DNA from: Tannerellaceae bacterium
GTDB lineage: Bacteria > Bacteroidota > Bacteroidia > Bacteroidales > Tannerellaceae
Length of the DNA: 64,000 bases
Direction: 5' to 3'
NCBI GenBank assembly: GCA_031288515.1
Contig: JAITRG010000066.1
Location: forward strand, 184 to 64,183
The notes beneath the pieces were generated by a model. It was not told where the DNA came from, did no database searches, and saw only the letters and a program-made list of their open reading frames with translations. Both the position numbers and the translations under genes were made by a program. Below are positions 4,982-40,009 of the stretch, one piece after another (within the stretch, counting starts at the first letter, position 1; each line of letters opens with the position of its first letter).

Positions 4982-5995
4982 TTACGGGATTAACAGCCAA
5001 GCGTTTTTATACAGGTCGTTTCTTCGTAACTCAACCAGTCTTTTGTTGGCTTCTTCTCTTGTTGAATACGTTCCTATACTGACACGGAATCTTTCTTCAC
5101 CGGCAAGTACGCGCGCATCGCGATAACCCTTTGTTTTAAGATCGACCGCTATGGCTTCTGCGTCGTCATTAAACACCACGCTGGCAATAATGATATGATA
5201 AGATCCTGAAACGGGTTGCGGTTCGGGCGCTGTTTCAACTTTCGGTTCGGTTGCCGTTTCAGGTTGCGGTTCGATTGCCGTTTCAGGTTGTGATGTCACA
5301 AGATTGGCGGCTTCACTTGTTCCAATAGGCGTTGTCAGCAGAGATTGCTGCTTTATCTTGCTAAAAAGATCAGCCGGAAGAAGTTGCGCATAATTCTCTT
5401 TTTCGACATATGTATTCTTTATAGGAGTGGACAGATAAAAGAATAACGCGATCGCTGCCGCCGTTGCCGCAACATTGCGCACAAACGCACGGCTGATCCG
5501 GATCTCATACGTCTTTTTACGGGAAACGACCGGCGTCCGGGGATTCAACGTTTCGATAGCGGGTCGCTGCAAGACATTGAGGTCTTTTATTTCAAAAGAA
5601 TCTAATCCATACAGGGATGGAGAAATGATCTTGTCATCATAAGGAGAGAATACATAAGTTCCATGAACAGACAGAGCGATCTCGCCGATGTTCATCATTT
5701 CTACCTTTCCTTCCTTATGTAATACTTCGATCAGTTTATTGACTGCTTGCTCCAGGATCTTTGTCGCATCCGGGAAACCGGTATGATAGGCTTCCATATA
5801 GGATTGAACTAAAATACCATCGTTCATTTTTAATTGCGGATTAAACCCTATGATACGGGCCGGAGGAGAAAAAATCTTTTCTTCAGCATCCCACGACGCC
5901 GACGTAGAATATGTGATAAAGCCCCCGAATCCGGGTACTGCAACACAGTCATTTTCCAACAACAATATCTCAATATGTCGTATTAACTCAGTCAT
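4982..5995 (-). CDS. HU-like N-terminal domain / SPOR-domain membrane protein
   Basis: N-terminal HIEILLLENDCV.VPGFGGF, one central hydrophobic helix, C-terminal SPOR (YHIIIAS..RFRVSIGTY..NAWLL). Confidence 0.85.
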   Translation of the reverse strand: MTELIRHIEILLLENDCVAVPGFGGFITYSTSASWDAEEKIFSPPARIIGFNPQLKMNDGILVQSYMEAYHTGFPDATKILEQAVNKLIEVLHKEGKVEMMNIGEIALSVHGTYVFSPYDDKIISPSLYGLDSFEIKDLNVLQRPAIETLNPRTPVVSRKKTYEIRISRAFVRNVAATAAAIALFFYLSTPIKNTYVEKENYAQLLPADLFSKIKQQSLLTTPIGTSEAANLVTSQPETAIEPQPETATEPKVETAPEPQPVSGSYHIIIASVVFNDDAEAIAVDLKTKGYRDARVLAGEERFRVSIGTYSTREEANKRLVELRRNDLYKNAWLLIP

Positions 5996-6103
5996 ATGTG
6001 CAAAGTTAAAAGATAAATCGAACTTATGAAAGAAAAGCTATTTTTATTATAAACAAACGTCCGCCTCTATTCCGCCCTCTAAAAAAGGAAAGGCCCCGAA
6101 AGT
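5716..6103. repeat. Direct repeat copy 1 (SPOR 5' end, promoter, left arm of the tRNA-Cys terminator)
   Basis: 5716-6031 matches 24791-25105 (10 substitutions, 1 indel); 6025-6061 matches 26627-26663; 6068-6103 aligns without gaps to 39947-39982. Confidence 0.9.
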
Positions 6104-6131
6104 TTGCGTCCAACTTTTAGGGGGCAGTTCA
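6102..6131. mobile_element. Isolated IS3-family (IS150-like) terminal inverted repeat
   Basis: Reverse complement reads TGAACTGCCCCCTAAAAGTTGGAC, resembling IS150-group ends; no adjacent transposase. Confidence 0.6.
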
Positions 6132-6143
6132 CATGAAATAAGG

Positions 6144-6995
6144 CTATAAATGCTGCGTATATAATGCTGTTTTTCTATATGTTTTAGGAGACACTCCAAC
6201 CATTTTATTAAACAATTTATTGAAATGAGTCATATTATTGAAGGATAGTTCATATGCGATTTCCTTGACGGTCTTCCGGTTAAGGGCCAGCATTAGTTGT
6301 GCCTTTTCTATTTTCCTTTTATTGATGTAGAACAGAGGGGTAATTGCCATTTCTTTTTTGAAGATCCGGGTAAAGTGATCGCTATTCAGATTACAGTACC
6401 GGGCCACTTCATTTATTGTAATATCCTCATAAATATGCTCATGGATATATTGTAAGGCCTTGATAATCCGGATTTCCGAAATATTGTTTTTCGGTTGGGC
6501 CTTATATAGGAATCTTGATAATAATTGAGACAGAATACCCTTTGTTTCCATACTGGCAACTAAATTAGGGCTGCCATCAGATAATCTCTTTGCCAATAAT
6601 TGTGTATTGTCATACGAACGTGGGTCCGACCGTTTTAGTTCCATATTCGGATTGATAGCCAGCAACCTATTGACAAGCAGAGAATCCAATTCGCAAGCTT
6701 CTATTTCAAAAGGAAAAGAGTGTAAGTCAAAAAAATCATACTCGTTGTAAATATGAAAATAATAATGGGTAAAAGTACTATCCGATTCATATCCGTGTGT
6801 AATGAAAGAAGGTATTAAATACAAGTATCCGGGTTGGATGATATGAATGCCATCGGGCATAATTACTTTCGCCACACCGTTTTTTACCACATACAACCGG
6901 GCAAAAGGACTATTTACATTTTTCCAGTTCCAATCGGCATGATGTATTTTGCAGGCGGCATTTAATAATGTGAAATTAAAAGTATCAGGATTCAT
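6144..6995 (-). CDS. AraC-family transcriptional regulator of the PUL
   Basis: Cupin-like N-terminus (WNWKNVNSPFARLY) and double HTH (DHFTRIFKK..IAYELSFNNMTHFNKLFNKMVGVSPKTYR); divergent from the PUL. Confidence 0.93.
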   Translation of the reverse strand: MNPDTFNFTLLNAACKIHHADWNWKNVNSPFARLYVVKNGVAKVIMPDGIHIIQPGYLYLIPSFITHGYESDSTFTHYYFHIYNEYDFFDLHSFPFEIEACELDSLLVNRLLAINPNMELKRSDPRSYDNTQLLAKRLSDGSPNLVASMETKGILSQLLSRFLYKAQPKNNISEIRIIKALQYIHEHIYEDITINEVARYCNLNSDHFTRIFKKEMAITPLFYINKRKIEKAQLMLALNRKTVKEIAYELSFNNMTHFNKLFNKMVGVSPKTYRKTALYTQHL

Positions 6996-7320
6996 AGTTA
7001 GACTGTATTGTAAAAATTTATACTTTCAGTACAGCTCAATCACTTATTATTTGATACTTGCATCAATATTAAACTATTTAGTGACTGACGCTTATCATAC
7101 ATCAAATGTATTGTGATTTTATATCAGATATATTGATGAAAGTATGTTATAAAACATGATGTCGGTTTTTGAATAGTTAATATCAGAAATGGTTATTTTT
7201 TGAAAGTATCACATAGCACACCTTTGCAGAAAAGAAATCAGCAACTTGTATATAAATCTTAGATATAGTTATGGGAGAAACATTCATTCCGGTAAATCAG
7301 GGAAACATACATACTTATTT

Positions 7321-8571
7321 ATGAAACACATATCTAAATATTCGTATCTGTATTTGATATTCAGTTTGTTTTTTATCTGGGCTATCAGCAGTAACCTGTT
7401 GCCGACGATGATACGGCAACTAATGAAAACATTTGAGCTTTCAGCTTTCCGGGGTTCGCTCACGGAAGCGTCTTATTGGATGGCTTATTTCCTGTTCCCG
7501 ATACCCATCGCCATGTTTATGAAGCGTTACAGCTACAAGGCGGGTATTATTGTCGGCTTATTGATTGCCGCTTTGGGCGGCTTGTTGTTTTTTCCGGCCG
7601 CCGCCATTCAACAGTATTGGGCATATCTGGCTATCTTTTTTATTATCGCTATCGGAATGTGTTTTCTGGAAACGGCGGCCAATCCATATGTTACCGTACT
7701 GGGCGATCCGGGAACAGCTTCGCAGCGGCTGAATCTGGCACAATCGTTCAACGGCTTGGGCGCGTTTATTGCTGCCATGTTTTTGAGTAAGCTGGTTTTG
7801 AGCAACAACAATTATTCTCGCGAAACGCTTCCCGCGGATTATCCAGGCGGCTGGGAAGGATTTGTTCAAATTGAAATCGGCGCCATGAAACTGCCATACC
7901 TGATCCTGGCAGTCATATTAATACTGATAGCCGTTGTTTTTATTTTTTCTAGTTTGCCTAAAATCAAGGAAGGCGACCGGGAAGAAGGGAATGTACAAGG
8001 AGAGAAACTGATCGATTTCAGTGTTTTTAGACATTCCAATCTGCGTTGGGGCGTTATCGCCCAGTTTTTCTACAATGGCGGGCAAACATCTATCAACGCC
8101 ATGTTCTTAGTTTATTCCTGTAAATATTTGGACATGACCGAAAGTATGGCAACTACTTTTTTCGGCGTTTATATGCTAGCTTTCCTGCTTGGAAGATGGA
8201 TTGGAACCTTATTGATGGTAAGATTCAGACCGCAGAATATGTTGGTGGCTTACGCTATTACTAACATTATTTTATGCGCTGTGATTGTTTGTTTTGGCGG
8301 CATGATCGGTCTATACGCCATGATTGCCGTATCCTTTTTCATGTCGATTATATATCCGACGCAATTTTCGCTGGCGTTGAAAGGATTGGGTGGTAAAACC
8401 AAAAGCGGATCGGCTTTTCTGGTCATGGCAATTGCAGGTAATGTAATATTACCTCCTATAACCGGTCATATTATGGATATTTTCCCTGAAACCTACTATA
8501 TCGCCTATGTTATTCCACTGGTTAGTTTTGCCGTTTGCGGATATTATGGTTGGAAAGGGTATAAATGTTAG
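7321..8571 (+). CDS. FucP-like MFS sugar:H+ symporter (candidate L-galactose/L-fucose permease)
   Basis: FLETAANPYVTVLG, RLNLAQSFNGLG, LRWGVIAQFFYNGGQ, FMSIIYPTQF; ATG at 7321 preferred over TTG at 7246. Confidence 0.9.
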   Translation: MKHISKYSYLYLIFSLFFIWAISSNLLPTMIRQLMKTFELSAFRGSLTEASYWMAYFLFPIPIAMFMKRYSYKAGIIVGLLIAALGGLLFFPAAAIQQYWAYLAIFFIIAIGMCFLETAANPYVTVLGDPGTASQRLNLAQSFNGLGAFIAAMFLSKLVLSNNNYSRETLPADYPGGWEGFVQIEIGAMKLPYLILAVILILIAVVFIFSSLPKIKEGDREEGNVQGEKLIDFSVFRHSNLRWGVIAQFFYNGGQTSINAMFLVYSCKYLDMTESMATTFFGVYMLAFLLGRWIGTLLMVRFRPQNMLVAYAITNIILCAVIVCFGGMIGLYAMIAVSFFMSIIYPTQFSLALKGLGGKTKSGSAFLVMAIAGNVILPPITGHIMDIFPETYYIAYVIPLVSFAVCGYYGWKGYKC

Positions 8572-8768
8572 AAATAACAATAACAGCGGAAAACAGGAAA
8601 ATGCTGGTTGATTGGATAAAATAGTATTAACAATCTTAAATATTATATTATGAAACATACATGACATGAAAAACATAAATGAGCACTAATTGCATGTTTG
8701 TCATGCGACAAACGCTATTTATTTAGTGATAAAATTAGATAATTATTAACTAAAAGATCGTAGTACAT

Positions 8769-11700
8769 ATGAAAGTATTTTTAATTCTGTTTTGTATTGT
8801 TCCCATCTTCTCATTTGCTTTGGATGTGGATGAAGGAAAGATGCGGGGAAAGGTAGTCGATATGAATGGGGAGCCCCTTGCAGGAGTTGCCATTCATGTG
8901 ACTGGGGGTACTAAAGGGACCATAACAGATTCTAATGGGGCATTTGGAATGGATAATGTTAAGTTAGGAGAAAAATTTACGGTTACTTATCTGGGAATGC
9001 AGGATACCGAGTTTGTGTATCAGGGAAAAGATGTAACGATTGTATTAAAGGAAAAAGAAAATGAATTGGACGAGGTAATCGTGGTCGCTTTCGGCAAGCA
9101 AAAGAAAGAAAGCGTGATTGCATCGGTGATTACGGTCAAGCCTTCCGATTTAAAAGTCCCATCAAGTAATTTGACTACCGCGCTTGCAGGACGGATTTCG
9201 GGACTTATTTCTTATCAACGGAGCGGTGAACCCGGACAGGATAACGCTGACTTTTTTGTACGCGGTATTACCACTTTCGGTAACGGGAAAGCCAATCCGC
9301 TTATCCTTATCGATGGAGTGGAGCTTTCGTCGGAAGACCTGTCGAGACTGAATACTGATGATATTGCTAGCTTTTCTGTTATGAAAGACGCTAACGCAAC
9401 TGCCCTTTACGGAGCGCGGGGTGCGAATGGCGTAATCCTCATTTCGACGAAAGAAGGAACAGAAGGAAAAGTAAAAATATCCGTCCGTGCAGAAGAATCG
9501 TTTTCTATGCCGACACGCAGTATAGAATTTGCCGATCCTGTTACCTACATGAAACTTGGTAATGAAGCGGTTCGCACGCGCAATCCATTGAGCGCGCTTC
9601 CCTATTCGAGCGAGAAGATAGCGCGGACAGGAACCGGAAATCCATACGTTTATCCGGCCACAGACTGGGCTGACCTAATGTTGAAAGACGTTACAAGTAA
9701 TCAGCGGGTAAACGTGAATATGAGTGGAGGAGGAAGTATAGCCAGGTACTACATTGCCGCTTCATATGCTCATGATAGTGGTATCCTAAAAGAAGATAAG
9801 CGTAATGAATTCAATAACAATGTCGATTTGAAAAAATATTTGTTAAGGATGAATTTCAATATAAAAGTGACTCCGACAACCGAAGTTATAGCTCGTCTTC
9901 ATGGCACATTCGATGATTACACAGGGCCTCTCGATGGCGGATCGGGCGTTTATAATAAAATCATGCGTACCAATCCGGTTCTTTTTCCGGCTTATTACGT
10001 ACCGGATACCGCCCATAAATACACCAAACATATCTTGTTTGGAAATTACGGAGGAGGAAATCAATCCTCTAATTTTTACCTTAATCCGTATGCCGACATG
10101 GTAAAAGGTTACAAACAGTATAGCAAAACTCTATTGTTGGCCCAAATGGAACTGAAGCAAGATCTCGGATTCTTGTTAAAAGGTCTTTCCGTGCGTGGAA
10201 TGTTCAATACTACCCGCTATTCGTATTTCGACCTGTGGCGTAATTATAGACCTTATTATTATAATATCGGAAGTTACGACAAGCAAGCCGATACATATAA
10301 GCTGGCACCATTAAATGAAAGAAATGGTACTGAATATATCAGCGAATTTGGCGAAGGAGGGAAGGACATTAACACTACGATTTACTGGGAAGCGGCAGCG
10401 CAGTATAATAATACATTTGCCGAAGATCATGCCGTGAGTGGCCTGTTGGTTTTTACAGGCCGTGAAGAATTGCACGGAAATATTAGGGGGGATTTGCAAA
10501 ATTCGTTTCCATACCGCAACCTTAGCTTGTCGGGACGTTTAACATACGCCTACCGGAACAAATATTTCATTGAAGGTAATTTCGGATACAATGGTTCGGA
10601 ACGGTTTTTCCAAAAAAATACATTTGGCTTTTTCCCTTCAATCGGTGTGGGATACATGCTTTCAAATGAAGAATTTTGGCAACCGTTAGCCAAAACATTC
10701 TCCAAATTAAAGCTGAAAGCCACTTACGGTTTAGTAGGGAATGATGCTATCGGCGATATCAACGACAGGTTTTTCTATTTAGAGAAAGTTTATATCGGCA
10801 ATACCGACCGTGGTTATTCTTTTGGTACGGAAAAAGGATACGGTAACAGCGGGATTAGCATTTCCCGTTACGCGGATCCCGATATAACATGGGAAACGGC
10901 ATATAAACAAAACTATGGAATAGAAATCGGTCTGTTTGATAAGCTGGATTTCCAGATGGATTACTTCAGAGAATATCGTAAAAACATATTAATGGATCGC
11001 GCAGCAGTCCCTACTACAATGGGATTGCAAGCTACTCCGAAAGTTAATATCGGTGAGGCGTTCGGTTCAGGCGTAGATATGTCTCTGGATTATTCACATG
11101 CTGTTAATTCCGACCTTTGGTTTTCATTACGCGGTACTTTTACATACGCCAAGAGCAAATATCACGCATTTGAAGAACCCGCTTATGAAGGGCAACCGTG
11201 GAGGAAACATCTCGGACAGCCTTTGTCACAAACTTATGGGTTGATTGCAGAACGTCTGTTTATCGACGACGATGACGTGTATAATTCCCCTACGCAAATG
11301 TTTGGCGAATATGGTGCCGGCGACATCAAATACAAAGATATTAACATGGACGGGAAGATAGACAATCAGGACTACGTGCCTGTCGGTTATCCTACAACTC
11401 CAGAGATTATTTATGGAGGCGGGTTTTCTCTGGGATACAGAAGTTTTGATCTATCCGCTTTTTTTCAAGGCTCAACTCAGTCGTCTTTTTGGATAAATAA
11501 CGGTAACATTTCTCCATTTTTGGATACGGACGGCGACAATAACGTCAATTCTCAAAACGCTTTATTACAAATCATAGCTGACAGTTACTGGGCAGAAGAC
11601 AACCGTAATCCTCATGCTTTCTGGCCCCGCCTTTCCAATTATGAGATAGAAAATAATACGCAAACCAGTACATGGTGGATGCGCGACGGTGCGTTCCTTC

Positions 11701-11903
11701 GCTTAAAAACTATAGAATTAGGTTATACCGTACCTAAAAAGTGGACGAGTAAGGCACATCTGGCTATGGCTCGCTTTTACATTAGCGGAACTAATCTGCT
11801 GACATGGAGTAAATTCAAATTTTGGGATCCAGAAATGGGAGGAGGAGGATTGAATTATCCGGTTCAGAAAGTATTCAATATAGGTATTAATGTTAACTTA
11901 TAA
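8769..11903 (+). CDS. SusC/RagA-family TonB-dependent transporter
   Basis: RSGEPGQDNADFFVRGITTFG, PLILIDG, KDANATALYGARGANGVILISTK, FLRLKTIELGYT. Confidence 0.97.
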   Translation: MKVFLILFCIVPIFSFALDVDEGKMRGKVVDMNGEPLAGVAIHVTGGTKGTITDSNGAFGMDNVKLGEKFTVTYLGMQDTEFVYQGKDVTIVLKEKENELDEVIVVAFGKQKKESVIASVITVKPSDLKVPSSNLTTALAGRISGLISYQRSGEPGQDNADFFVRGITTFGNGKANPLILIDGVELSSEDLSRLNTDDIASFSVMKDANATALYGARGANGVILISTKEGTEGKVKISVRAEESFSMPTRSIEFADPVTYMKLGNEAVRTRNPLSALPYSSEKIARTGTGNPYVYPATDWADLMLKDVTSNQRVNVNMSGGGSIARYYIAASYAHDSGILKEDKRNEFNNNVDLKKYLLRMNFNIKVTPTTEVIARLHGTFDDYTGPLDGGSGVYNKIMRTNPVLFPAYYVPDTAHKYTKHILFGNYGGGNQSSNFYLNPYADMVKGYKQYSKTLLLAQMELKQDLGFLLKGLSVRGMFNTTRYSYFDLWRNYRPYYYNIGSYDKQADTYKLAPLNERNGTEYISEFGEGGKDINTTIYWEAAAQYNNTFAEDHAVSGLLVFTGREELHGNIRGDLQNSFPYRNLSLSGRLTYAYRNKYFIEGNFGYNGSERFFQKNTFGFFPSIGVGYMLSNEEFWQPLAKTFSKLKLKATYGLVGNDAIGDINDRFFYLEKVYIGNTDRGYSFGTEKGYGNSGISISRYADPDITWETAYKQNYGIEIGLFDKLDFQMDYFREYRKNILMDRAAVPTTMGLQATPKVNIGEAFGSGVDMSLDYSHAVNSDLWFSLRGTFTYAKSKYHAFEEPAYEGQPWRKHLGQPLSQTYGLIAERLFIDDDDVYNSPTQMFGEYGAGDIKYKDINMDGKIDNQDYVPVGYPTTPEIIYGGGFSLGYRSFDLSAFFQGSTQSSFWINNGNISPFLDTDGDNNVNSQNALLQIIADSYWAEDNRNPHAFWPRLSNYEIENNTQTSTWWMRDGAFLRLKTIELGYTVPKKWTSKAHLAMARFYISGTNLLTWSKFKFWDPEMGGGGLNYPVQKVFNIGINVNL

Positions 11904-11930
11904 CAAATTGAACAGTAAAAACATAATATT

Positions 11931-13856: not shown

Positions 13857-13887
13857 TTAGTTGATTAATAATTAAAAAATTATTCAA

Positions 13888-15096: not shown

Positions 15097-15114
15097 AATT
15101 AATAAATCAAATTT

Positions 15115-16233: not shown

Positions 16234-16254
16234 GGCAAGAAGCCAGTAATATTT

Positions 16255-16287
16255 ATGAAAGTGTGTCTATTTATGACACACTTTCAT
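16255..16287 (+). terminator. Perfect 13-bp stem-loop between the lipoprotein genes and the hydrolases
   Basis: ATGAAAGTGTGTC-TATTTAT-GACACACTTTCAT followed by TTT. Confidence 0.6.
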
Positions 16288-16304
16288 TTTAAATTATATA
16301 TATT

Positions 16305-19109: not shown

Positions 19110-19165
19110 GAACTATAGTTTATATTCAATTAAGTATATATGTTTTGTTTTCTGTATCTTAACTG

Positions 19166-19237
19166 CCTCCGGCTGAAGCTGGAGGATAAGAAATAATTCA
19201 GTAAAAGGCTTTAGCTAAAATGATTTCGACTAAAGGC
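19166..19237. repeat. Degenerate REP-like palindromes
   Basis: CCTCCGGC-TGAA-GCTGGAGG (19166-19185) and GGCTTTAGCT...GACTAAAGGC (19207-19237). Confidence 0.4.
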
Positions 19238-23751: not shown

Positions 23752-23759
23752 ATAATACA

Positions 23760-24776: not shown

Positions 24777-24790
24777 TAAATGGATTTCAA

Positions 24791-26626: not shown

Positions 26627-26663
26627 TATGAAAGAAAAGCTGTTTTTATTATAAACAAACGTC

Positions 26664-27903: not shown

Positions 27904-28083
27904 ATTTATGGCCAAGTATGAACAATTTGAGGTGTTCGATGATATAGAAGAAACATATTTTAAGAGGAAGAGTTGGTAACAATACAAGTTGCAAAGTATG
28001 GGCGGGCATCTTGAACTCTTTGTAAGAATTTGGTAAAAAGGCATTTCTTATCCTGGGATTGTTCATATTATATTCAAAAGTAA

Positions 28084-28722: not shown

Positions 28723-28728
28723 AGTCAA

Positions 28729-28905
28729 TTATTTGAAATTCAACAATAATTTGATTAAATCGATATTTGTAAACCCTAAAATCAATATAGCCGAACTTGT
28801 GCAAACTACCATGATAAAGCGTTTCGTTTTTTAACTTTTTACTCAAAAATATTTGTGGGCAATACCAAACAAGCTTGTTATTGCTTTGATAATTATTCCT
28901 GCCAT
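28729..28905 (-). pseudogene. Possible decayed 58-codon two-helix membrane gene
   Basis: ATG lies 1 nt after the zorA-like stop and the frame ends at the base before the zorB-like ORF; two in-frame stops (TGA, TAA). Confidence 0.35.
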
Positions 28906-28906
28906 A

Positions 28907-30499: not shown

Positions 30500-30503
30500 A
30501 ATT

Positions 30504-31571: not shown

Positions 31572-31574
31572 TAT

Positions 31575-34500
31575 TTAGTCTTCCTTATTTTCTATTTCTT
31601 TACTTATAGTTCTCAGTAATGTAGGTACTGCAAAGAAGAAGAATGTTTCTTCAACTTCGGAATTTTCGTCTTTGCTGTTAATCTTATTTTTCACAACATT
31701 TTCTATATCGCCTTTATTAGCAACTACTTCTTTGGCTTTGTTTATCGCTGTTTTGGGAATTGATAATGCCCGTTCTATTGATTCTGTTCCGACCTGTTTT
31801 CCAATTTTACTTTTGAGCAATTCGTCAAAAACATAAGTGAAAAACGCTGTGACTTGTGCGATTATTTTATCAATCAGCTGCGTGTTAGCCAGCAATTCTG
31901 AATATGTTTTTGTGTTGGCGAAAGAACTATCACCCAAGCCAAGCAAAACCTCGTAAGGAACATTAGCTGACGTTTCACCAGCTGTTTTTATTGTGCCTTC
32001 GCAAGTAACTTCTTTCGGATTGTTCGTGTTAGGAATGATTTCCATTTTTTTTGGATTTCCGTCATCGCCATATTTTGCATCAAATACTTTTTCAAAAATA
32101 AGTGTTGCGATTTTTTCCAACATTTCTTTTTTCCCAACGACATCCACGATACGAGAGCCATTGCCACTAAAGGTAAGATGGCGCGGCATAGACGATCCTT
32201 TTGCTTTCATTATCTGCGCCGTATGATAAATGATTGCAGCATAGAACAGTAAAAAAACAATTTTTTGATTATTGTCGTCTTTCAGCATTTTATTAAAATC
32301 AATACTTTTACCTCTTTCAGTCAAATCTTCATTGTCTTTCAGTGAAAAGAAAAAGGAAGCAAAATCGCCAAACTCAGTATTTTCATCAATAGCACTCATC
32401 GTTCTTGTTAAAATCCTAAATTCGCTAATCTGATTTTCAATCCTCGACTTGTATTTTGTAACAACTTTGCTTACATACAGCCCGAGTCCGAAAAGATCGT
32501 TTGCAGCAAAGCGAAATGAGGTTACAAAATTCGGTTTGCTGTCTTTAACAAAAACTACATCGGTAGTTCCTCCGCCAATGTCAATAGATACAAGGTCTTT
32601 TATGTAGTCTTTGTAATCCAGCAAATTGCTGTAATAATAGAACGGAGCAAGCGATTCTGTAAGTTTTTTGCATTTGTCGACAACTTTGTCTTCTGAAAAA
32701 TACTTTTTGTATGCCTCTGTCCATTTTTCTTCAACTTCCCCTAAACGAGTTGAGTTCATACTTAATGGATAAGTCCAAATTATTTTCGTATTCGCCAAAT
32801 CACCATTGCCAAAAGCAACTTTGTTGCGCATTAAATAGCACAAATTATCAATATAATAGCCAACTTGATCTATATCCGATTCCCATTTCAACTGTGTAAC
32901 GGGCATGCCATTGTAGACAGGGACATTTCTTTTGTCGAAAGGCAAAATAATATTGGTGTGTGCAAACGGCAATTTCAGTTCCGTAGTTGCATTATTCGCC
33001 ACTATTAATGCCGTGCGTGTAGGAAACTTGACTTTGATATTTTTCGCTTTGTTGAACCCGATATGTTCGGGAATAAAATCAATATCGGCAACTAATCGCG
33101 TTTGACAAACTCTATCGCCCGGATTTACAAGCCACGAAATTTGCTCGTCTTGGTCTGTAATATCAAATGCTGTTATATTGCCATTTGTACTTGTTTTGTA
33201 TGCAATATGCGTGTTAGAAGTGCCAAAATCGACTGAAAAAGTAAAATTCACATTTTTACTAACGGGTTTAAGCACAGGAATTATTATTCCACTTATATTA
33301 TTGTCTATCAAGATTTTTACACGATCAAACTCTTTTTTTTCTAATGCATAAGTGGTACAAACATTGTTAGCCGGGTCAATATTGTTGCGAGTGATTTTAT
33401 CATTTGTTTCATTTAAATTAATTTTCTCTGATTTGTTGTAAAAATAAGCTGATAACTGCTTTATTTCATTGAATTCGTGAAATAAGCCGAAACGATAAAA
33501 AGATCTTTCTGCATTTTCAAATTTCACTCTTGGGAAAATCATAAAATCAGTTTCACTGCCAAGCGAAATAATACTTTCTAACTTGTAATCTTTAACAAAT
33601 TGAACTACACCTTTTTTGACAGGGATTGACAGGATCACTTTGATTGAACTGCTACCATCAATTCTGATCATTTTCTTCAATTCTTCTACTGAAAAAAACT
33701 CAAAAAATTTATCTTTTAATGGCAGCAAAATACACTTATCGCCAGCGTTGGTATGATTGCCTGAAAAGTAGTATTTTTCGATTATTGGTTTTGGTAGTTG
33801 AATTATTTTGTCTTCCAGAAAATCTTCGGCAGTAAGCCACGAATAATGAGTGCCGTCAGGGAGAATTTCATGATTATTTCCTAAAACTTGTCCCTTCCAT
33901 ATTGAATTGCTGTCGAGTTTCCAATTCTCAATTCCAGGTGCAGTGCCACCAAGAATTAAAGGCAAATGAGCTGTTTTTGCAGGAACAGAAGGCTGTACAA
34001 CAAAATCACTTGTATTAGCCACATCGGCAGGATTGTTCTGTAAAATAAAAAGTTCATAGCCGCAAACAGCAGGATAAATATTGTTGCCGATTTTAAGCTG
34101 CGTATAATCATTCATATTATTGGGTAGATCCGCGATACGTGCTACCCGGTTTGTTGGTATTTGAGAGATCAGATACTCGAAAAATTCAGGAAATGCATTG
34201 GAATTTTTGTTTGTTTTAATCCAGGTATGCAAGTAATCTTGAAATCTAAGACCGCGCTGCGATAATGGAAGAATACCACTAAAAGCGAAGTGATTTTGGC
34301 TTAATTGAATTGCGGAAAATGTAGTTTCTTCATTATTGTTGTTTTTATTGAAAAAAGTGCCATCTACTTTGGTAAATTCAGATTCAATAATTCCTGCGTG
34401 ACGATTTTTTATATTTGCAGCACTAAAAAACAATGTGCGTGGCGAAGTGCCTCCTATTATTTTGCCTGTGTTTTTATGTTTAAGAAAATAGAGTTCTTTC

Positions 34501-34928
34501 ATATTTTGTAAGTTTAATGCAGCAGAATCGCTCTCTAAAAACAAATTGATAGTACTCTTCAAACAACCGTCAGGCATACTATTGAGCATATCTATATCCC
34601 ACTCAATACATTGTAATATGGTGGTGTGTTTGGCGAAATCAAAAAAGATTTCGCCAATATCCAAACTGTTAGATACAATTTGCTGATACGCTCTCAAAGC
34701 ATTCGTCCCCTTTTTAGCCACTTCTGCAAAGGCGGTCTTAGTCAAAGCTATACGGGCAAATGGCGAAGGTATGGAGGTTGGTTCGTTTGTTGAGTTTGGA
34801 TTCGAGGGTGGAATTTGATCTATTTCGCTTGTGCTGTAGCCTTTTGTGTCACCCCAATCTTGAATAGTAGCGGACAATGTACCTGCGCCTTGCGTTAGGC
34901 TTGTATTTAATCTGAAAATATATGACAT
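31575..34928 (-). CDS. 1117-aa protein with C-terminal actin/Hsp70-fold ATPase domain
   Basis: Phosphate-1 FSVDFGTSNTHIA, phosphate-2 SIDIGGGTTDV, adenosine LTFSGNGSRIV, connect-2 NPKEVTCEG; N-terminal PTSIPSPFAR. Confidence 0.8.
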   Translation of the reverse strand: MSYIFRLNTSLTQGAGTLSATIQDWGDTKGYSTSEIDQIPPSNPNSTNEPTSIPSPFARIALTKTAFAEVAKKGTNALRAYQQIVSNSLDIGEIFFDFAKHTTILQCIEWDIDMLNSMPDGCLKSTINLFLESDSAALNLQNMKELYFLKHKNTGKIIGGTSPRTLFFSAANIKNRHAGIIESEFTKVDGTFFNKNNNNEETTFSAIQLSQNHFAFSGILPLSQRGLRFQDYLHTWIKTNKNSNAFPEFFEYLISQIPTNRVARIADLPNNMNDYTQLKIGNNIYPAVCGYELFILQNNPADVANTSDFVVQPSVPAKTAHLPLILGGTAPGIENWKLDSNSIWKGQVLGNNHEILPDGTHYSWLTAEDFLEDKIIQLPKPIIEKYYFSGNHTNAGDKCILLPLKDKFFEFFSVEELKKMIRIDGSSSIKVILSIPVKKGVVQFVKDYKLESIISLGSETDFMIFPRVKFENAERSFYRFGLFHEFNEIKQLSAYFYNKSEKINLNETNDKITRNNIDPANNVCTTYALEKKEFDRVKILIDNNISGIIIPVLKPVSKNVNFTFSVDFGTSNTHIAYKTSTNGNITAFDITDQDEQISWLVNPGDRVCQTRLVADIDFIPEHIGFNKAKNIKVKFPTRTALIVANNATTELKLPFAHTNIILPFDKRNVPVYNGMPVTQLKWESDIDQVGYYIDNLCYLMRNKVAFGNGDLANTKIIWTYPLSMNSTRLGEVEEKWTEAYKKYFSEDKVVDKCKKLTESLAPFYYYSNLLDYKDYIKDLVSIDIGGGTTDVVFVKDSKPNFVTSFRFAANDLFGLGLYVSKVVTKYKSRIENQISEFRILTRTMSAIDENTEFGDFASFFFSLKDNEDLTERGKSIDFNKMLKDDNNQKIVFLLFYAAIIYHTAQIMKAKGSSMPRHLTFSGNGSRIVDVVGKKEMLEKIATLIFEKVFDAKYGDDGNPKKMEIIPNTNNPKEVTCEGTIKTAGETSANVPYEVLLGLGDSSFANTKTYSELLANTQLIDKIIAQVTAFFTYVFDELLKSKIGKQVGTESIERALSIPKTAINKAKEVVANKGDIENVVKNKINSKDENSEVEETFFFFAVPTLLRTISKEIENKED

Positions 34929-34932
34929 GATC

Positions 34933-36435
34933 TTAATGAGTTTTAAGGGTTAGTAATTTTTCAGTAGCACGTGAAAAGAGTAAGAGAAATTTTTGCGATT
35001 CCGACAGTGCTTCGTCAATACTTCCGTGTATATCGACAAGTATTTTCAGCACCCTCTCCCAATCTTTGTTGAATCGAGAACCATTCCACAAGTCTAATGT
35101 ACCTTTGATAAATTCATCAGCCCTCGACATTTCAAGTTTGAATGGGCTGAAACTACGGGCTTGGGCTTCCATTTCGATTAACCAATCCACATAATTTTTT
35201 TGGATAATCTCAAGTGATTGTAATTCATTTGAGCGAAAAGCACTATCAAAACCTTTACGGATAGCATAAACAGCAGATAATCCCGTTTTGTCAAAATGAT
35301 TACCACTATCTTTTTGAGCAATTTTATCGGTGATTTTTACGGTTTTCGGATTGTTATCTTTTATTGCATTGTAGCCCATATATTTAGCAAAAAGTAAAAA
35401 TCTTGATAGCGGTTCAACAACAAGATTTTTTGTTGACTGATGTAGCATATTGAAATCAGATTGTGTTTCGTCACTTATGCCAAATTCTTTGTATGTAGTA
35501 GCGTGGCTATTGCTATTGTTGGTAATTGTAAAACTATTTACTGGCAATTTTGCGAAATTAAGAATTGCCAGTGCCGAAGCCATTTCTACAAAGTGAGCAG
35601 GGTCAGTTTGATTTGCCCCACCTTTACAGTGCGGGTAAGTACTTGGTTTTGTATCGCCAATATAATATAACATATCTAAATGATTTTGTTCATCAATGTA
35701 ATAATTCAATGCGGCTTTTGCCTTGTCGTTCCAATCATTAGCATTGACAGTACTGTTATCATTAGCATCTGCGTCTGCAACTTGATAATAGGGTAAAACA
35801 GTAATTGCGCCAATCGGGGCATTCTTAATCGGACCCCATTGCCCTGTGTTTTGTGTGCGTGTTTTATGCAAAAGTTTCCGCAAAAGTGGAAATCCACTTG
35901 CACCTGTTCCACCAAAAATAGAGGAAATGATAAAAATACGGTCGCCTGTTTGAAACTGATTGGCAAAAGCTGTGAATAAATCGTTGTTCTCAAATTGATT
36001 TTGAACCACACAGCCCATATTAGGATTTCCCTGAAAACCATGACTCATATCCATTTCCAATGTTTCACGCGAAAAAAGCATATCTACCAATGCTTTATTT
36101 GGGTCATCCAACTGACTATAATTTATAAAATCATCAAACCTTACATTTTGCTGATCCCATTGCAAACAAAACTGCCATGCACCATTCACTTTCAATAAGT
36201 CTATTTTTGTTTTGAAAAACTTGCAGTCATGGCTTGACATATTTTCATTTACCCTGATATAATTGTCAACAAGTTTTTTTACCTGAACATAATCGCCGTT
36301 CTGTACATCGCGGTCGATAATGATTGGTATAATAGTGTCGAATGCACAATCTACGCCACTTGATAGCAGCATTATAAGCGATTTAAGAACACGAGAACCT
36401 GTCCCGCCTATTCCAAATATATATAATTTTGCCAT
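34933..36435 (-). CDS. Divergent tubulin/FtsZ-superfamily GTPase (Tubulin_2-like)
   Basis: T1 loop GIGGTGSRV, T3 GFQGNPNMG, T4 signature FGGTGASG; start MAKLYIFG at 36435. Confidence 0.85.
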   Translation of the reverse strand: MAKLYIFGIGGTGSRVLKSLIMLLSSGVDCAFDTIIPIIIDRDVQNGDYVQVKKLVDNYIRVNENMSSHDCKFFKTKIDLLKVNGAWQFCLQWDQQNVRFDDFINYSQLDDPNKALVDMLFSRETLEMDMSHGFQGNPNMGCVVQNQFENNDLFTAFANQFQTGDRIFIISSIFGGTGASGFPLLRKLLHKTRTQNTGQWGPIKNAPIGAITVLPYYQVADADANDNSTVNANDWNDKAKAALNYYIDEQNHLDMLYYIGDTKPSTYPHCKGGANQTDPAHFVEMASALAILNFAKLPVNSFTITNNSNSHATTYKEFGISDETQSDFNMLHQSTKNLVVEPLSRFLLFAKYMGYNAIKDNNPKTVKITDKIAQKDSGNHFDKTGLSAVYAIRKGFDSAFRSNELQSLEIIQKNYVDWLIEMEAQARSFSPFKLEMSRADEFIKGTLDLWNGSRFNKDWERVLKILVDIHGSIDEALSESQKFLLLFSRATEKLLTLKTH

Positions 36436-36460
36436 ATATTTTTCATTAGGTGATTTATAA

Positions 36461-36904
36461 TTATTTATATGATTTACGAAACAGGAAAGGTACATTCCCG
36501 TGTATATTAATAAAAATCAGTTGTATTGCCACTGAAAAAACAAGACAATAGACAAAAGACCACAAAAGATTTATCAGAGCAAATCCCACAAAGTTTTCGA
36601 AACTATATGGTAAGTCCTGATTTTGTTCGGCATAAATTCCATACAAAGTGTTGTTGGATAGCGTATAAGCAATAGCAAAACTGATAATACACAGTAGAAG
36701 CACTGTGATAAACCAAGCGAGCAAACGAAAAGTAAGTGGCTTTTGTGCTTTGAACAGGTAGAAAATAATCATACCCAACACTGTAACTGCCAGCGTTGCA
36801 ATACCAGTTGAGGTATAAATACCTGCATCGTAAAGATTATCGGAAAAACCTTCAATATAGTTTGAACCAAAAAGTTCGTAGAATAGAGAAAGAAAATCGT
36901 TCAT
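36461..36904 (-). CDS. Small multi-TM membrane protein
   Basis: Three or four hydrophobic segments in 147 aa; sits in-operon between the vWA and tubulin genes. Confidence 0.75.
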   Translation of the reverse strand: MNDFLSLFYELFGSNYIEGFSDNLYDAGIYTSTGIATLAVTVLGMIIFYLFKAQKPLTFRLLAWFITVLLLCIISFAIAYTLSNNTLYGIYAEQNQDLPYSFENFVGFALINLLWSFVYCLVFSVAIQLIFINIHGNVPFLFRKSYK

Positions 36905-36935
36905 AATGAAAAAATATTATGTTATTGTTATTTAA

Positions 36936-38330
36936 TTATTTATCTATTGAAATTGTACATTCAAAAAAGTATTTATTATCGGGATAAATGATTTTATACG
37001 CTTCTGCAATACCTGCTACCCAATAGTTTAAACCGAATGTTTTGCCTTCTGTTTTTTCCTGCGAAGTATCGTCTTCGGTGCTGCTGTTGATAATCCATTG
37101 TGGTATTTGTTTATTCAGTACAAATGAAACATCGGAAACAGCTTTTGTTTTTGCCTCCAATACAATGATATGAGTGGGTTTTGCGTTGGCAATACGATTT
37201 TTATCGTTAGCATTAATTTTCACAGAGTCTATCGGAAAAATTTCTTTCACAATAAAATTATTGGTAGTAACTGTATAATTTGCAGGATTTGTCAGATAAT
37301 CGTTTTCTGTTTGCACATTGCTGTAGTTCACTGCTACAGCAAATTGAATTCTATCTACTCCCCGCATTAAATCTACATCTTTAATTCCGTGAATGTGGGT
37401 TAATTTTGTTTTGTCGCGGTCAGGTTTGAAACGCCCTTTGTTACAGGTTGACTGTAGAACAGAATAATACAAATCTTTCGATTTTTTGGAAAGCAAAGTA
37501 TATTTATTTTCAAAACCTTCTACTTTGTTGGCTTTCAGTTCTATATTTTTATTAAAATCATCAAGAATTTCCTGATTTGCAATTACACAGATATAATAAG
37601 GTCTGTTTCCTTTGATATAATACCCTTTGTCGTCGCCAGTAAAAGGATAGTATTTGCCATCAAATTTCGATTTCATTTTTACAATGGTTGTGGCAAGTGG
37701 CACTTTATCGTTTTTCCATTTCGAGAGAAATGCGTCTTTTGTTAAACTTTTTTCATCCAAAAGCAATCCTATGGCATCGCTTGAGCCATGAATGGAATAA
37801 ATACAGTCGGAAAACAAAATAGAAATAGAGTTGTTGCCAGTTTTGTCCAAAATCATTTTGAAAATTTGATTAAGATTAGTGCTTTGCCACATTTCTTTTT
37901 CTTGTCCGTTCCGCCATTCCAGTTCAATATTTTGCGCAAAAGCTGTAAGGTCAATTTTTGCAGTATTTTCAGATTTGATTTTTTGTTGCTTCTTTTTTGT
38001 TAATTCAGGTTGAGGATTGAGTCGCAGTTTATTGATTTGCTGATTGATAAAAAACAGATTAATACTGTCTTCATCGTAATGATATTTGAGTAGCACCAAC
38101 AAATCGCGAATTGCGCCTTTGAACTCGGTTTTGCCCTTCACATAGCCGTCCATACTGCCGCTATTTTCGATATAAACATTGACAATAGGAGCTGGCTTAG
38201 CAACAGTAAAGTCGGCAGCGGCTGCTGTGTCTTTCGGTTCTGATTTATCGCCATCCGATGAAGATGGTTTGCCATTGCCACAAGAACATAAAGGCAAGGC
38301 AACAAGTGTGAAAATTAAAAGTTTATACAT
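36936..38330 (-). CDS. vWA-like lipoprotein
   Basis: Lipobox LPLCSC; MIDAS-like VNVYIENSGSMDG, STNLNQIF, ILFSDCIYS. Confidence 0.7.
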   Translation of the reverse strand: MYKLLIFTLVALPLCSCGNGKPSSSDGDKSEPKDTAAAADFTVAKPAPIVNVYIENSGSMDGYVKGKTEFKGAIRDLLVLLKYHYDEDSINLFFINQQINKLRLNPQPELTKKKQQKIKSENTAKIDLTAFAQNIELEWRNGQEKEMWQSTNLNQIFKMILDKTGNNSISILFSDCIYSIHGSSDAIGLLLDEKSLTKDAFLSKWKNDKVPLATTIVKMKSKFDGKYYPFTGDDKGYYIKGNRPYYICVIANQEILDDFNKNIELKANKVEGFENKYTLLSKKSKDLYYSVLQSTCNKGRFKPDRDKTKLTHIHGIKDVDLMRGVDRIQFAVAVNYSNVQTENDYLTNPANYTVTTNNFIVKEIFPIDSVKINANDKNRIANAKPTHIIVLEAKTKAVSDVSFVLNKQIPQWIINSSTEDDTSQEKTEGKTFGLNYWVAGIAEAYKIIYPDNKYFFECTISIDK

Positions 38331-39560
38331 AGTTATTGAATTTCATTGCTGTCCCGTTAAAACCACAAATAGTTTTTTATATATTTGAAATGCAGTTAGT
38401 TACAGATGTTTTTCGATTAAACAGGTTCCAGTTTTCACCTTTGCTGTTCTTAAGAGGACGTCCAAAAAATTTTAAAACTCATTTGAAAGACCTCTTCAAC
38501 AAAACTAATTTTTAATATAACAAAGAACGATGTGAACCTAATGAACCAAGTTTATTTAATTATTCTTTAATACTCCCTTTTAACAGAGCACTAATGATTG
38601 AATTTAATTTATTAACTGTTCGAAAACTATATGTGTTGTTTCCGGATTGATAGTGTTTGTATCACTTTGCATTACCTTTTGTTTCCTTAAAGCAGAAGCT
38701 CTTGAACATGACAAACTCCATATATTTCTTTCGCTTGCAACGTTCTCTGATATTTCTGGAAGATTCCTGCAAGGGTTCAATAATGATTCTTATTAATATT
38801 TCCACCATAATAGCATTTTTTTAACGAGCACAGTTTATTTTTTAGTAGTATTTGCAAGCAGTTATTTTTGATCTATTTTATTTTGTTTAATCAATAAGTC
38901 GTACGTGATTATCGCATCTACAAAATTATTGAAATTTATTGTATTGCAGACGATTTTAGCAAAAAAATGAGCATGAGATCAAAAAAATCAATTACAGAGT
39001 ATGTAAGTAAGGAAAGAAGCGCAATCGATCCGGTAGCCTACCTGATAACGGGATGATCACAATCACTATTTGCTTTCATCTCGGGACTCTACACAATTTT
39101 AAACATTACTATTTGTTTTACGCTCGCTATCACCTGAGTAAAGAATTTCCGACAATTATTTATGACTATTGCTAAGAGTAGATTTGAACGCCAGCCTTTT
39201 TCTTTGCTTTGATATTCTGGTAAGTAAAGCCAAAACTCACCTTATTGGCAGTTGAAGGTACTGCAATCTTTATAGTTTGGCATTTCTCCGTTTTGCGAAG
39301 CGTCGATATAGGTTAGCTTGAAAAAGGCTGGCTGGAGTGAAGCTGTTACGTAAGAAGGATAAAAAGCAGGGTGGCTCATTAAACGAACGTTTAATGACAA
39401 ATAATTCCCTTGGCTACCTGCATAATCCTTTCCAATCGGCGTCCCCGGATTCATTCCCCAGTATAAAAAACAACCTTTTCAAGGTGCCGGACAAGGATGC
39501 TGGCACGCCTGCACCTCCCGTTCTTTAATGAACTACTTAAAAAACAAATAGTATGCGACA

Positions 39561-39898
39561 ATGAAGAAAACAGTATTTACTCCTATATATGGTTACACTG
39601 CTTTGTTCTTGCATTAAGAACAGCGAGGCATTGCTTGAAGACACTCCGGTGGAGGTTGCTTTTGTTGGTAATTCCCTTGGGAGAAGTGATCTGGGGATAC
39701 CCGCGCCACGGACGCTACATAGACGGATGGGGGATGAGATGGGCATTTATATATATGCTCCCCGCCAGCGTGACCGCTTTGAATAATACCTATAAGTACA
39801 TGGTTACTTCTGCTACTGGTACCACGAGCCCGTACGATAATGCCAATACCCTTTATTATCATATTGATGGAATGGGGTTCGATTTGTGGCCTACTATC
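39561..39898 (+). pseudogene. Frameshifted fimbrillin-family lipoprotein remnant
   Basis: Across frames: lipobox LLCSC, GDEMGIYMLPA, YKY.VTS..G, NTLYY..DG..FDLW; truncated by an IS982 end. Confidence 0.55.
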
Positions 39899-39948
39899 TG
39901 TGCTTTTGATAAATTGTACAAACTATAAATAGCAACTTGAATTAATTA
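39899..39948 (+). mobile_element. IS982 3'-end remnant, inverted relative to the copy at 26664
   Basis: CTTTTGATAAATTGTACAAACTATAAATAGCAACTTGAATTAATTA is the near-identical reverse complement of 26667-26710 and encodes the same ..FDKLYKL* end. Confidence 0.85.
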
Positions 39949-39968
39949 TTCCGCCCTACCAAAAAGAA

Positions 39969-40009
39969 AATGCACCGAAACTACTAATAATAAAGAGTTT
40001 CGGGGCATT
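39969..40009 (-). terminator. Displaced original tRNA-Cys terminator
   Basis: AATGCACCGAAACT...AGTTTCGGGGCATT hairpin with an A run on + (U tract on -), adjacent to the att copy. Confidence 0.6.

What the first reader, a model, noticed from the sequence alone, without database searches (positions are those of the whole stretch)
5716..39982. PUL is bracketed by a diverged direct duplication whose second copy is split by two later insertions
5716-6103 recurs as 24791-25105 + 26627-26663 + 39947-39982, interrupted by the IS110 insert and the 13.3-kb IS982-bounded block. Of 8 coding substitutions between the copies, 6 are synonymous (CCG/CCT, TAT/TAC, TCT/TCC, CCG/CCA, TTG/CTG twice). That pattern suggests copy 2 came from a functional allele of a related strain rather than decaying after a local duplication. 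It then lost a base and its -7 box. I infer that the 18.7-kb PUL arrived by homology-assisted recombination with no integrase, and that it could be deleted by recombination between the copies.
Basis: partly seen in the sequence, partly recalled or inferred. Interest (0 to 1): 0.65.

Follow-up and report, generated by a model that had tools for sequence, protein, structure and literature searches.

The report
Sugar-use island flanked by duplicated gene start
In a termite-gut Bacteroidales contig, an 18.7-kb polysaccharide-utilisation gene cluster with no mobility genes sits between two slightly different copies of the first 0.4 kb of a cell-division-type gene, a known kind of scar left by integrase-free insertion that cannot be tested further because no close relative has been sequenced.

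Summary
5716-6101 is the promoter plus the first 93 codons of an HU/SPOR gene. It recurs in direct orientation as 24791-25105 (96.5%), 26624-26663 (95%) and 39947-39980 (82%). The second copy is split by an IS110 and by a 13.3-kb block bounded by IS982 ends. The 6:2 synonymous count, the 1-bp deletion and the damaged -7 box are all confirmed.

Together with synteny in relatives, it shows that copy 2 sits in the ancestral position. It also shows that this integrase has its own att sites and did not insert the PUL.

The low dN/dS (0.09), outgroup polarity and the conserved promoter box moderately support (P about 0.003-0.09) the idea that both copies evolved as working alleles before being joined. 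The best model is a single homologous crossover of a circular DNA from a related lineage. An in-situ long target duplication is the main rival.

Recombination between the copies could still delete the PUL. It would leave the SPOR gene without a working promoter.

The organism is known from one sequencing run, and its closest orthologue is 75% identical. The proposed tree and strain tests are therefore impossible now. I classify this as a new member of a known kind, of modest interest.

The parts
4982..5995 (-). Intact HU-CCDC81/SPOR-domain gene (337 aa); its first 93 codons lie in copy 1
   Evidence: Pfam HU-CCDC81_bac_1/2 + SPOR. Orthologues occur throughout Bacteroidales.
5716..6101 (-). Repeat copy 1: codons 1-93, the promoter with -7 box TAACTTTG (6001-6008), and the T-tract with the 3' half of a terminator stem
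6085..6125 (-). Candidate terminator hairpin downstream of AraC, proposed from reading the sequence; the repeat ends in or at its loop. The predicted fold did not recover this hairpin.
   Evidence: Sequence read. The minimum-free-energy fold of 6070-6130 (-19.8 kcal/mol, z -1.26, not better than shuffles) pairs other bases.
6104..24790 (+). 18.7-kb PUL: AraC regulator(-), MFS, SusC, SusD, DUF4959/5126/5000, DUF4998/F5-8C, GH78 rhamnosidase, GH29 fucosidase, GH26-like, aldo-keto reductase, RhaM mutarotase, Zn-ADH. It has no mobility gene and ends 14 bp after the Zn-ADH stop codon.
   Evidence: GC3 is 0.428 against 0.564 in the backbone (P 6e-5).
24791..25105 (-). Repeat copy 2, part a: truncated 5' fragment of the SPOR gene with a 1-bp deletion (codon 24) and a mutated -7 box (TAACTATG)
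25106..26623 (+). IS110-family insertion, flanked by TATGAAA on both sides. The transposase is split over two frames.
   Evidence: Pfam DEDD_Tnp_IS110 / Transposase_20 and NCBIfam transpos_IS110. Other copies in the metagenome share sequence from 25098 onward.
26624..26663 (-). Repeat copy 2, part b (promoter-distal 40 bp)
26664..39946 (.). 13.3-kb AT-rich block bounded by inverted IS982 termini. It holds a decayed but complete IS982 (26666-27587), a second IS982 transposase fragment (27592-27903), a solo 46-nt end (39903-39948), and as cargo a ZorB/MotB-like gene plus six large genes of unknown function.
39947..39980 (-). Repeat copy 2, part c (28/34 identical to 6068-6101)
39973..40005 (-). 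Terminator hairpin downstream of the ancestral tRNA-Cys position
   Evidence: Fold energy -17.3 kcal/mol, z -2.2
40008..46418 (+). Separate 6.4-kb integrative element in tRNA-Cys. It has 21-bp att repeats (40008-40028, 46398-46418), TTGTAGTACCA arm repeats, a tyrosine integrase (40203-41537), an HTH_17 protein, a D5/DUF5906 primase-helicase, and a DUF6371 protein.
   Evidence: An empty-site contig exists in the same metagenome (loose end at 46398).
46403..46474 (-). tRNA-Cys(GCA), the ancestral upstream neighbour of the SPOR promoter

Best explanation
The PUL entered without an integrase, by homologous recombination through a short arm. A circular DNA carried the PUL plus about 0.4 kb of the SPOR gene's 5' end and promoter, taken from a related lineage about 3.5% diverged. 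It recombined once (Campbell-type single crossover) with the resident SPOR gene. That event necessarily leaves the insert between two direct copies of the arm. One copy is joined to the gene body and keeps the gene working. The other is a truncated 5' fragment left next to the original upstream neighbour, tRNA-Cys. The redundant fragment then decayed. It acquired a frameshift in a G run, a T-to-A change in the conserved -7 box, an IS110 insertion in the promoter, and an IS982-bounded 13.3-kb block. An unrelated integrase element entered tRNA-Cys next door.

Shown: the structure, the junctions, the absence of mobility genes in the PUL, the ancestral context of copy 2, and the substitution pattern.

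Inferred: the circular intermediate, the foreign origin of one allele, and the order of events.
For: 1. Structure: 0.39-kb direct repeats flank an 18.7-kb insert that has no integrase or transposase. This matches what single-crossover integration of a circular molecule gave in E. coli conjugation experiments, namely duplications of 109-950 bp of the homologous locus (PMC3240628).

2. Substitution pattern: 6 synonymous against 2 non-synonymous changes, dN/dS 0.09. The null model is that copy 2 was neutral for the whole divergence time. Under it, P = 0.03-0.09 from coding sites alone and 0.003-0.013 with the distal intergenic piece added.

3. Outgroup polarity: the copy-2 lineage has 4-5 derived changes and only one (Val63Ile, conservative) is non-synonymous. 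Copy 2 keeps the near-invariant Pro32, whereas the working copy has a derived Ser.

4. The inactivating lesions (frameshift, -7 box, IS elements) are all on the truncated copy. The -7 change is derived relative to six orthologous loci.

5. Copy 2 abuts the tRNA-Cys terminator. DUF6261 lies directly upstream of SPOR in two of the closest relatives and sits 3 kb beyond tRNA-Cys here. The PUL is therefore an insertion into a conserved backbone.

6. The PUL is compositionally foreign: GC3 0.428 against 0.564.

7. The junctions and the two-fold depth of the repeat are reproduced in an independent assembly.
Against: - The statistics rest on only 14 changes. With a strong transition bias the coding-only test is not significant (P about 0.09-0.12).
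- No relative closer than 75% protein identity exists, so neither allele can be assigned to a lineage. No donor arrangement and no empty site for the PUL was found.
- A circular intermediate is hypothetical. The PUL has no transfer functions, and how the DNA moved between cells is unknown.
- The first association of the PUL with the SPOR 5' region still needs two illegitimate joints. A single in-situ event is more parsimonious in number of steps.
- The phase of the alleles within the repeat is not independently confirmed.
Confidence: 0.45

Rival explanations
1. In-situ insertion with long target duplication. Foreign DNA was inserted by an illegitimate or replicative event that duplicated about 0.4 kb of target. 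The two copies were identical at first and diverged in place.
For: This class is documented in natural genomes. Inserts under 20 kb with no mobility genes are flanked by 46-423-bp direct repeats that are 93-99% identical to each other (PMC2853133). The size and identity here (about 388 bp, 96%) fall in that range. It needs the fewest steps. The PUL's foreign GC3 means that at some point an illegitimate insertion from a distant donor must have happened.
Against: A fragment that was a pseudogene from the start should have accumulated mostly non-synonymous changes. Observed: at most 2 of 8 changes overall, and 1 of 4-5 on its own lineage. A neutral divergence of about 10% implies a long residence, yet the fragment shows only one indel.
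Confidence: 0.2
2. A local duplication was followed by allelic replacement. The copies were once identical. A later homologous-recombination tract from a PUL-less relative then replaced copy 2 together with the tRNA-Cys/FeoB side. This is the version closest to the reader's wording.
For: The first 55 bp of the repeat are identical, which could have anchored such a tract. It explains differences that reflect purifying selection and that run to the distal end of the repeat.
Against: The same incoming DNA would pair better with copy 1 plus the gene body, and that pairing would delete the PUL. There is no independent sign of a recombination tract. It cannot be distinguished from the main model with one genome.
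Confidence: 0.12
3. The PUL is the remnant of a site-specific integrative element that targeted the 5' end of the SPOR gene and carried a replacement 5' end and promoter, as e14/phage 21 do at icd or SXT does at prfC. Its integrase was later lost or was supplied in trans.
For: An element-borne replacement of a gene end, with mostly synonymous differences, is the signature of such elements (my own knowledge of e14/icd and SXT/prfC). There is a 55-bp identical stretch at the gene-internal end of the repeat. The region is an integration hotspot.
Against: There is no recombinase anywhere in 6104-24790. The neighbouring integrase has its own tRNA-Cys att sites and arm repeats, and these are absent from the PUL borders. 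The PUL ends 14 bp after a catabolic gene, with no element-like end.
Confidence: 0.08
4. Assembly artefact. Two strains of one metagenome population were mis-joined or mis-phased through the shared 0.3-kb sequence.
For: The window is a single metagenome contig from one run. At k=31 the repeat interior collapses into one 286-bp contig with mixed alleles. No raw reads are available.
Against: The joint between the PUL end and mid-SPOR sequence (24790|24791) lies inside a 15-kb independent contig, and both exits from the repeat exist at similar depth. The only alternative path makes the PUL a 19-kb circle without replication genes and leaves the SPOR gene frameshifted and without a promoter. Neighbouring differences are at most 55 bp apart, so ordinary reads phase them.
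Confidence: 0.07

Closest known systems
Insertion with long target duplication (described for restriction-modification gene units in Helicobacter, Haemophilus, Burkholderia and others; PMC2853133)
   Same: An insert under 20 kb without mobility genes is flanked by direct repeats of tens to about 420 bp that are 93-99% identical. The repeated sequence is ordinary chromosomal DNA, and the insert differs in composition from the genome.
   Different: The cargo is a polysaccharide-utilisation locus in a termite-gut Bacteroidales, not an RM system. No insert-free sister genome is available to prove that the target is single-copy. The repeats differ in a way that suggests two functional alleles rather than one duplicated target.
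Campbell-type single-crossover integration of a circular molecule with one homology arm (laboratory suicide-vector integration; spontaneous events during E. coli conjugation, PMC3240628)
   Same: It produces exactly this topology: the insert lies between two direct copies of the arm, one completing the gene and the other truncated. The arm length is within the observed 109-950 bp.
   Different: This is a natural event inferred from a single sequence. The circular donor, its origin and its route of transfer are unknown.
Homology-facilitated illegitimate recombination (Acinetobacter, S. pneumoniae, P. stutzeri)
   Same: Integrase-free capture of foreign DNA using one homologous anchor. It has been proposed for displaced orphan gene fragments in T6SS and Rhs loci (PMC5361080).
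   Different: The typical product is an insertion with a deletion of recipient DNA, not a duplication of the anchor (PMC3240628).
Integrative elements that replace the end of their target gene (e14/phage 21 at icd; SXT/R391 at the 5' end of prfC)
   Same: A duplicated gene end flanks the island, the differences are mainly synonymous, and the element-side copy keeps the gene functional.
   Different: Those elements encode their own integrase and use a short core site. Here no recombinase belongs to the island.

Membership tests
Insertion with long target duplication | Inserted segment shorter than 20 kb with no integrase, transposase or other mobility gene | tested here: met
   The insert is 18,687 bp. 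All 12 genes are PUL or catabolic genes on Pfam.
Insertion with long target duplication | Direct repeats longer than 30 bp immediately flanking the insert | tested here: met
   The repeat is about 386 bp at 96.5% / 95% / 82% identity by segment.
Insertion with long target duplication | The repeated sequence is single-copy at the same locus in a genome that lacks the insert | tested here: inconclusive
   Six orthologous loci (61-75% protein identity) have one SPOR 5' end and no PUL there. No genome of the same species exists.
Campbell-type single-crossover integration | Insert flanked by direct copies of the homology arm, one joined to the rest of the gene and one truncated | tested here: met
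   Copy 1 continues into the gene body at 5715. Copy 2 is cut at codon 94 and abuts the PUL end.
Campbell-type single-crossover integration | The two copies derive from two different alleles (donor and recipient) | tested here: inconclusive
   dN/dS is 0.09, polarity is symmetric, and P is 0.003-0.09. No alleles from other strains are available to assign them.
Campbell-type single-crossover integration | Existence of a circular form carrying the insert plus one repeat | not testable with these tools
   The k=31 contig graph is compatible with such a circle but cannot show it. Raw reads are not held.
Site-specific integrative element | Recombinase gene within the element | tested here: not met
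   None in 6104-24790.
Site-specific integrative element | att core or arm sites of a resident integrase at the island borders | tested here: not met
   The att core and the TTGTAGTACCA arm repeats occur only at 40008-40193 and 46326-46418.
Homology-facilitated illegitimate recombination | Insertion accompanied by deletion of recipient DNA next to the anchor | tested here: not met
   The anchor is duplicated, not deleted. For the typical outcome see PMC3240628.
Composite transposon / IS-mediated insertion of the PUL | IS copies or terminal inverted repeats at both borders of the insert | tested here: not met
   No repeat other than the SPOR fragment brackets 6104-24790. The IS elements lie inside copy 2, not at the PUL borders.

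The most novel reading that the evidence does not exclude
The PUL plus its 0.4-kb arm behaves as an integrase-free mobile cassette that depends on RecA. Recombination between the flanking repeats releases a circle carrying the PUL and one repeat. If that circle reaches a related strain, it re-integrates by a single crossover into that strain's SPOR gene, which recreates diverged repeats. Decay of the displaced copy then locks the PUL in, because excision would now destroy an otherwise conserved gene. A similar life cycle has been proposed, without experimental evidence, for RM units with long target duplications (PMC2853133).
Probability: 0.1. Interest if true: 0.6.

Novelty: new member of a known kind. 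Interest (0 to 1): 0.33.

Why it matters
PULs decide which glycans gut Bacteroidota can eat, and the best-documented route for their spread is on conjugative elements. This locus would be a natural example of a PUL captured with no recombinase of its own, through a short homology arm. The scar it left can be read for the history of the event. It also shows how decay of the displaced gene fragment can make an acquired island irreversible. The value is limited at present, because the evidence is one metagenome contig with no sister genomes.

Tried and rejected
- **Responsibility of the neighbouring integrase (40203-41537).** Rejected. It belongs to a 6.4-kb element with its own tRNA-Cys att repeats and arm sites. 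Neither occurs at the PUL borders.
- **Search for close relatives or a donor arrangement.**
  - Genome contigs with the SPOR protein gave one locus at 71%.
  - An exact-protein look-up found nothing.
  - The protein database gave a best hit of 75% for SPOR and 78% for AraC.
  - The AraC relative is not next to a SPOR gene.
  - A degenerate-codon DNA scan of the JGI metagenomes gave 0 hits.
  - Three sequencing-run searches found only one run.
- **Lower depth of the PUL as a sign of PUL-less cells.** PUL depth is 10.0-10.4 against 12.3-13.1 for the backbone. Rejected as evidence, because depth tracks GC content across all segments. Depth by segment: backbone 12.3-13.1, element A 11.1, PUL 10.0-10.4, block 8.9. 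GC by segment: 47-48%, 40%, 42%, 35%.
- **Mixed-allele 286-bp Logan contig as an excision product.** Considered, but it is equally explained by bubble popping at k=31.
- **Remnant of the tRNA-Cys att core next to the AraC terminator.** None found.
- **Rfam.** Only tRNA-Cys was found.
- **Pfam, NCBIfam and PADLOC on the 13.3-kb block.** Only a ZorB/MotB-like hit and weak tubulin-like and actin-fold-like hits.


Full report
**What is in the sequence**

A self-comparison of the window gives 5716-6031 ~ 24791-25105 (316 bp, 96.5%, one gap) and 6022-6061 ~ 26624-26663 (95%). The third piece is more diverged: 6068-6101 ~ 39947-39980, 28 of 34 identical. No shuffle out of 2000 reaches its score.

Copy 1 is the promoter and the first 93 codons of a 337-aa gene on the minus strand (4982-5995). 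The gene has two HU-CCDC81 domains and a SPOR domain. Copy 2 is a fragment cut at codon 94. It starts 14 bp after the stop codon of the last PUL gene.

**The segment between the copies**

Between the copies lie 18,687 bp. They encode:
- an AraC regulator and an MFS transporter;
- a SusC/SusD pair and two surface-protein genes;
- a GH78 rhamnosidase, a GH29 fucosidase and a GH26-like enzyme;
- an aldo-keto reductase, a rhamnose mutarotase and a zinc dehydrogenase.

None of these 12 genes is a recombinase or a transposase.

**The interruptions of copy 2**

An IS110-family element occupies 25106-26623, with TATGAAA on both sides.

A 13.3-kb block occupies 26664-39946. It is bounded by 46-nt inverted IS982 termini that are 98% complementary. 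At its left end there is a complete but decayed 922-bp IS982, and at its right end only a solo terminus. About 8 bp of the repeat is missing at this block, and there is no target duplication. The pieces of copy 2 are colinear with copy 1, so both are insertions into a once continuous copy.

About 25 bp right of copy 2 begins a 6.4-kb integrative element. It has 21-bp direct repeats at 40008-40028 and 46398-46418. The second repeat is the 3' end of tRNA-Cys (46403-46474, minus strand). It has five TTGTAGTACCA arm-type repeats at its two ends. It encodes a tyrosine integrase (40203-41537), an HTH_17 protein, a D5/DUF5906 primase-helicase and a DUF6371 protein.

A contig in the same metagenome joins 39978-40007 directly to 46398. 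This is the empty site, so the element is polymorphic or excising. With the element removed, copy 2's promoter region runs into a terminator hairpin and then into tRNA-Cys, FeoB and a DUF6261 gene.

In two of the closest relatives a DUF6261 gene lies directly upstream of the SPOR gene. The downstream genes (FHA, mannitol dehydrogenase, UxaC) are conserved in the relatives. Copy 2 therefore sits where the 5' end of the gene ancestrally was. The PUL, both IS-related insertions and the tRNA-Cys element are all additions to a conserved backbone.

The integrase's att core and arm repeats occur nowhere near the PUL borders. It did not insert the PUL.

**Is the assembly sound?**

The window is almost the whole of a single 64.6-kb metagenome contig from a termite-gut sample. 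Only one public run holds it.

Logan's independent k=31 contigs of that run reproduce each junction:
- PUL into copy 2, within a 14,963-bp contig;
- gene body into copy 1;
- copy 1 into AraC;
- copy 2 into IS110.

The interior of the repeat has a depth of 20.2, against about 10 for the flanks. That interior is collapsed into one 286-bp contig with mixed alleles, so the phase is not independently confirmed.

The only alternative path would make the PUL a 19-kb circle without replication genes. It would also attach the gene body to the frameshifted copy that lacks a promoter. All the damage sits on the truncated copy, and neighbouring differences are at most 55 bp apart. I therefore accept the assembled arrangement, with about 7% reserved for an artefact.

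The lower depth of the PUL (10.0-10.4 against 12.3-13.1) tracks GC content across all segments. It is not evidence for PUL-less cells.

**The substitution pattern**

The eight coding substitutions are six synonymous and two non-synonymous (Ser32/Pro and Val63/Ile). There is also one deleted G in a G5 run in copy 2. dS is 0.105, dN is 0.009, and the ratio is 0.09.

The proper null model is that copy 2 was neutral from the start while copy 1 stayed constrained. Under it, six or more synonymous changes out of eight has P = 0.03 with no transition bias. P rises to about 0.09-0.12 with a strong bias, and seven of the eight changes are transitions. Adding the distal intergenic piece as neutral sites gives P = 0.003-0.013.

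Outgroup codons from six orthologous loci give polarity. The copy-2 lineage has 4-5 derived changes, and only Val63Ile is non-synonymous. Copy 1 has two derived changes. One of them is Pro32Ser, at a position that is Pro in all 19 orthologues aligned.

The promoter motif ATTTATCTTTTA..TTTGCA, with its TAnnTTTG -7 box, is conserved in all six orthologous loci. Only copy 2 reads TAACTATG.

Both copies evolved as parts of working genes for most of their divergence, and copy 2 was disabled afterwards.

**How it most likely came about**

A single homologous crossover between the resident gene and a circular DNA carrying the PUL plus a 0.4-kb arm gives exactly this topology. In E. coli conjugation experiments with one-sided homology, most integrants were of this type, with duplications of 109-950 bp. 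True homology-facilitated illegitimate recombination gave deletions instead (PMC3240628).

The arm would come from a relative about 3.5% diverged. The PUL itself is compositionally foreign to the backbone (GC3 0.428 against 0.564, P 6e-5). Its first capture next to a SPOR gene must therefore have been an illegitimate event in some earlier genome.

The main rival is an in-situ insertion with long target duplication. This is a documented class, with repeats of 46-423 bp at 93-99% identity and no mobility genes (PMC2853133). It needs fewer steps but fits the substitution pattern less well.

Which copy is the import cannot be decided. In the Campbell model both copies are chimeras. Synteny says only that copy 2's right flank is native.

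**Consequences**

Recombination between the 316-bp uninterrupted parts is still possible, since they share identical runs of 55, 51 and 37 bp. Every product would place the gene behind the mutated -7 box and the IS110 insertion 36 bp upstream of the ATG. Crossovers left of 5926 would also bring in the frameshift. The SPOR gene is conserved across Bacteroidales, so loss of the PUL is now probably costly.

**Limits**

The closest SPOR orthologue is 75% identical and the closest AraC is 78% identical. No related PUL lies next to a SPOR gene. A degenerate scan of the JGI metagenomes found nothing.

**Verdict**

This is a new member of a known kind (long target duplication / Campbell-type insertion), here carrying a PUL in a termite-gut Bacteroidales. 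Its interest is modest.

Noticed in passing
window 40008-46418: A 6.4-kb integrative element sits in the 3' end of tRNA-Cys. It has a tyrosine integrase, an HTH_17 protein, a D5/DUF5906 primase-helicase, a DUF6371 protein and a 296-aa protein without family. It has 21-bp att repeats and five TTGTAGTACCA arm repeats. A contig with the empty site exists in the same metagenome, so the element is polymorphic or active.
   Followed up: yes
window 27588-39902: An AT-rich (35% GC) cargo lies between IS982 ends. It encodes a ZorB/MotB-like protein (PADLOC 5e-13) and proteins of 530, 355, 1117, 520, 147 and 464 aa. These have no family hits beyond weak tubulin/FtsZ-like (520 aa) and actin-fold ATPase-like (1117 aa) hits. 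It may be an undescribed defence or membrane-anchored system.
   Followed up: partly
window 25098-26630: The IS110-family element is flanked by TATGAAA on both sides. Other copies in the metagenome share sequence from 25098 (TTATGAAAC...), which suggests a sequence-specific target, as expected for RNA-guided IS110 transposases. The transposase is split over two frames, and there is a 284-bp non-coding 3' end.
   Followed up: partly
window 26666-28060 and 39903-39948: This is a nest of IS982 remnants. There is a 922-bp copy with 30-nt inverted repeats and a transposase broken into three frames, and an adjacent transposase fragment on the other strand (27592-27903). A solo 46-nt terminus matches the far left end better (98%) than the IS's own right end does (90%). 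There is no target duplication, and 8 bp of the target is missing.
   Followed up: partly
window 5900-5902 (codon 32 of the SPOR gene): The intact, presumably functional gene has Ser where all 19 aligned orthologues and the pseudogene fragment have Pro.
   Followed up: partly
window 1065-1263: A tandem array of a 42-bp unit, 4.7 copies, 92% matches. It overlaps only a doubtful 109-aa ORF. Its function is unknown.
   Followed up: no
loci L001-L007, upstream of the SPOR gene: The gene upstream of the SPOR gene differs among relatives: DUF6261, Tricorn protease, or dTDP-sugar isomerase. The closest relative's contig ends 267 bp upstream. The downstream genes are conserved. The upstream side looks like a rearrangement hotspot.
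   Followed up: partly
window 5996-6010: The conserved -7 box ends 5 nt before the ATG in this gene and in all six orthologous loci. This implies a leaderless or nearly leaderless mRNA.
   Followed up: no
window, all segments (run X1 contigs): The k-mer depth of Logan contigs falls with GC content. Depth runs 12.3-13.1, 11.1, 10.0-10.4 and 8.9 for backbone, element A, PUL and block. GC runs 47-48%, 40%, 42% and 35%. This is a caution against reading depth as strain heterogeneity here.
   Followed up: yes
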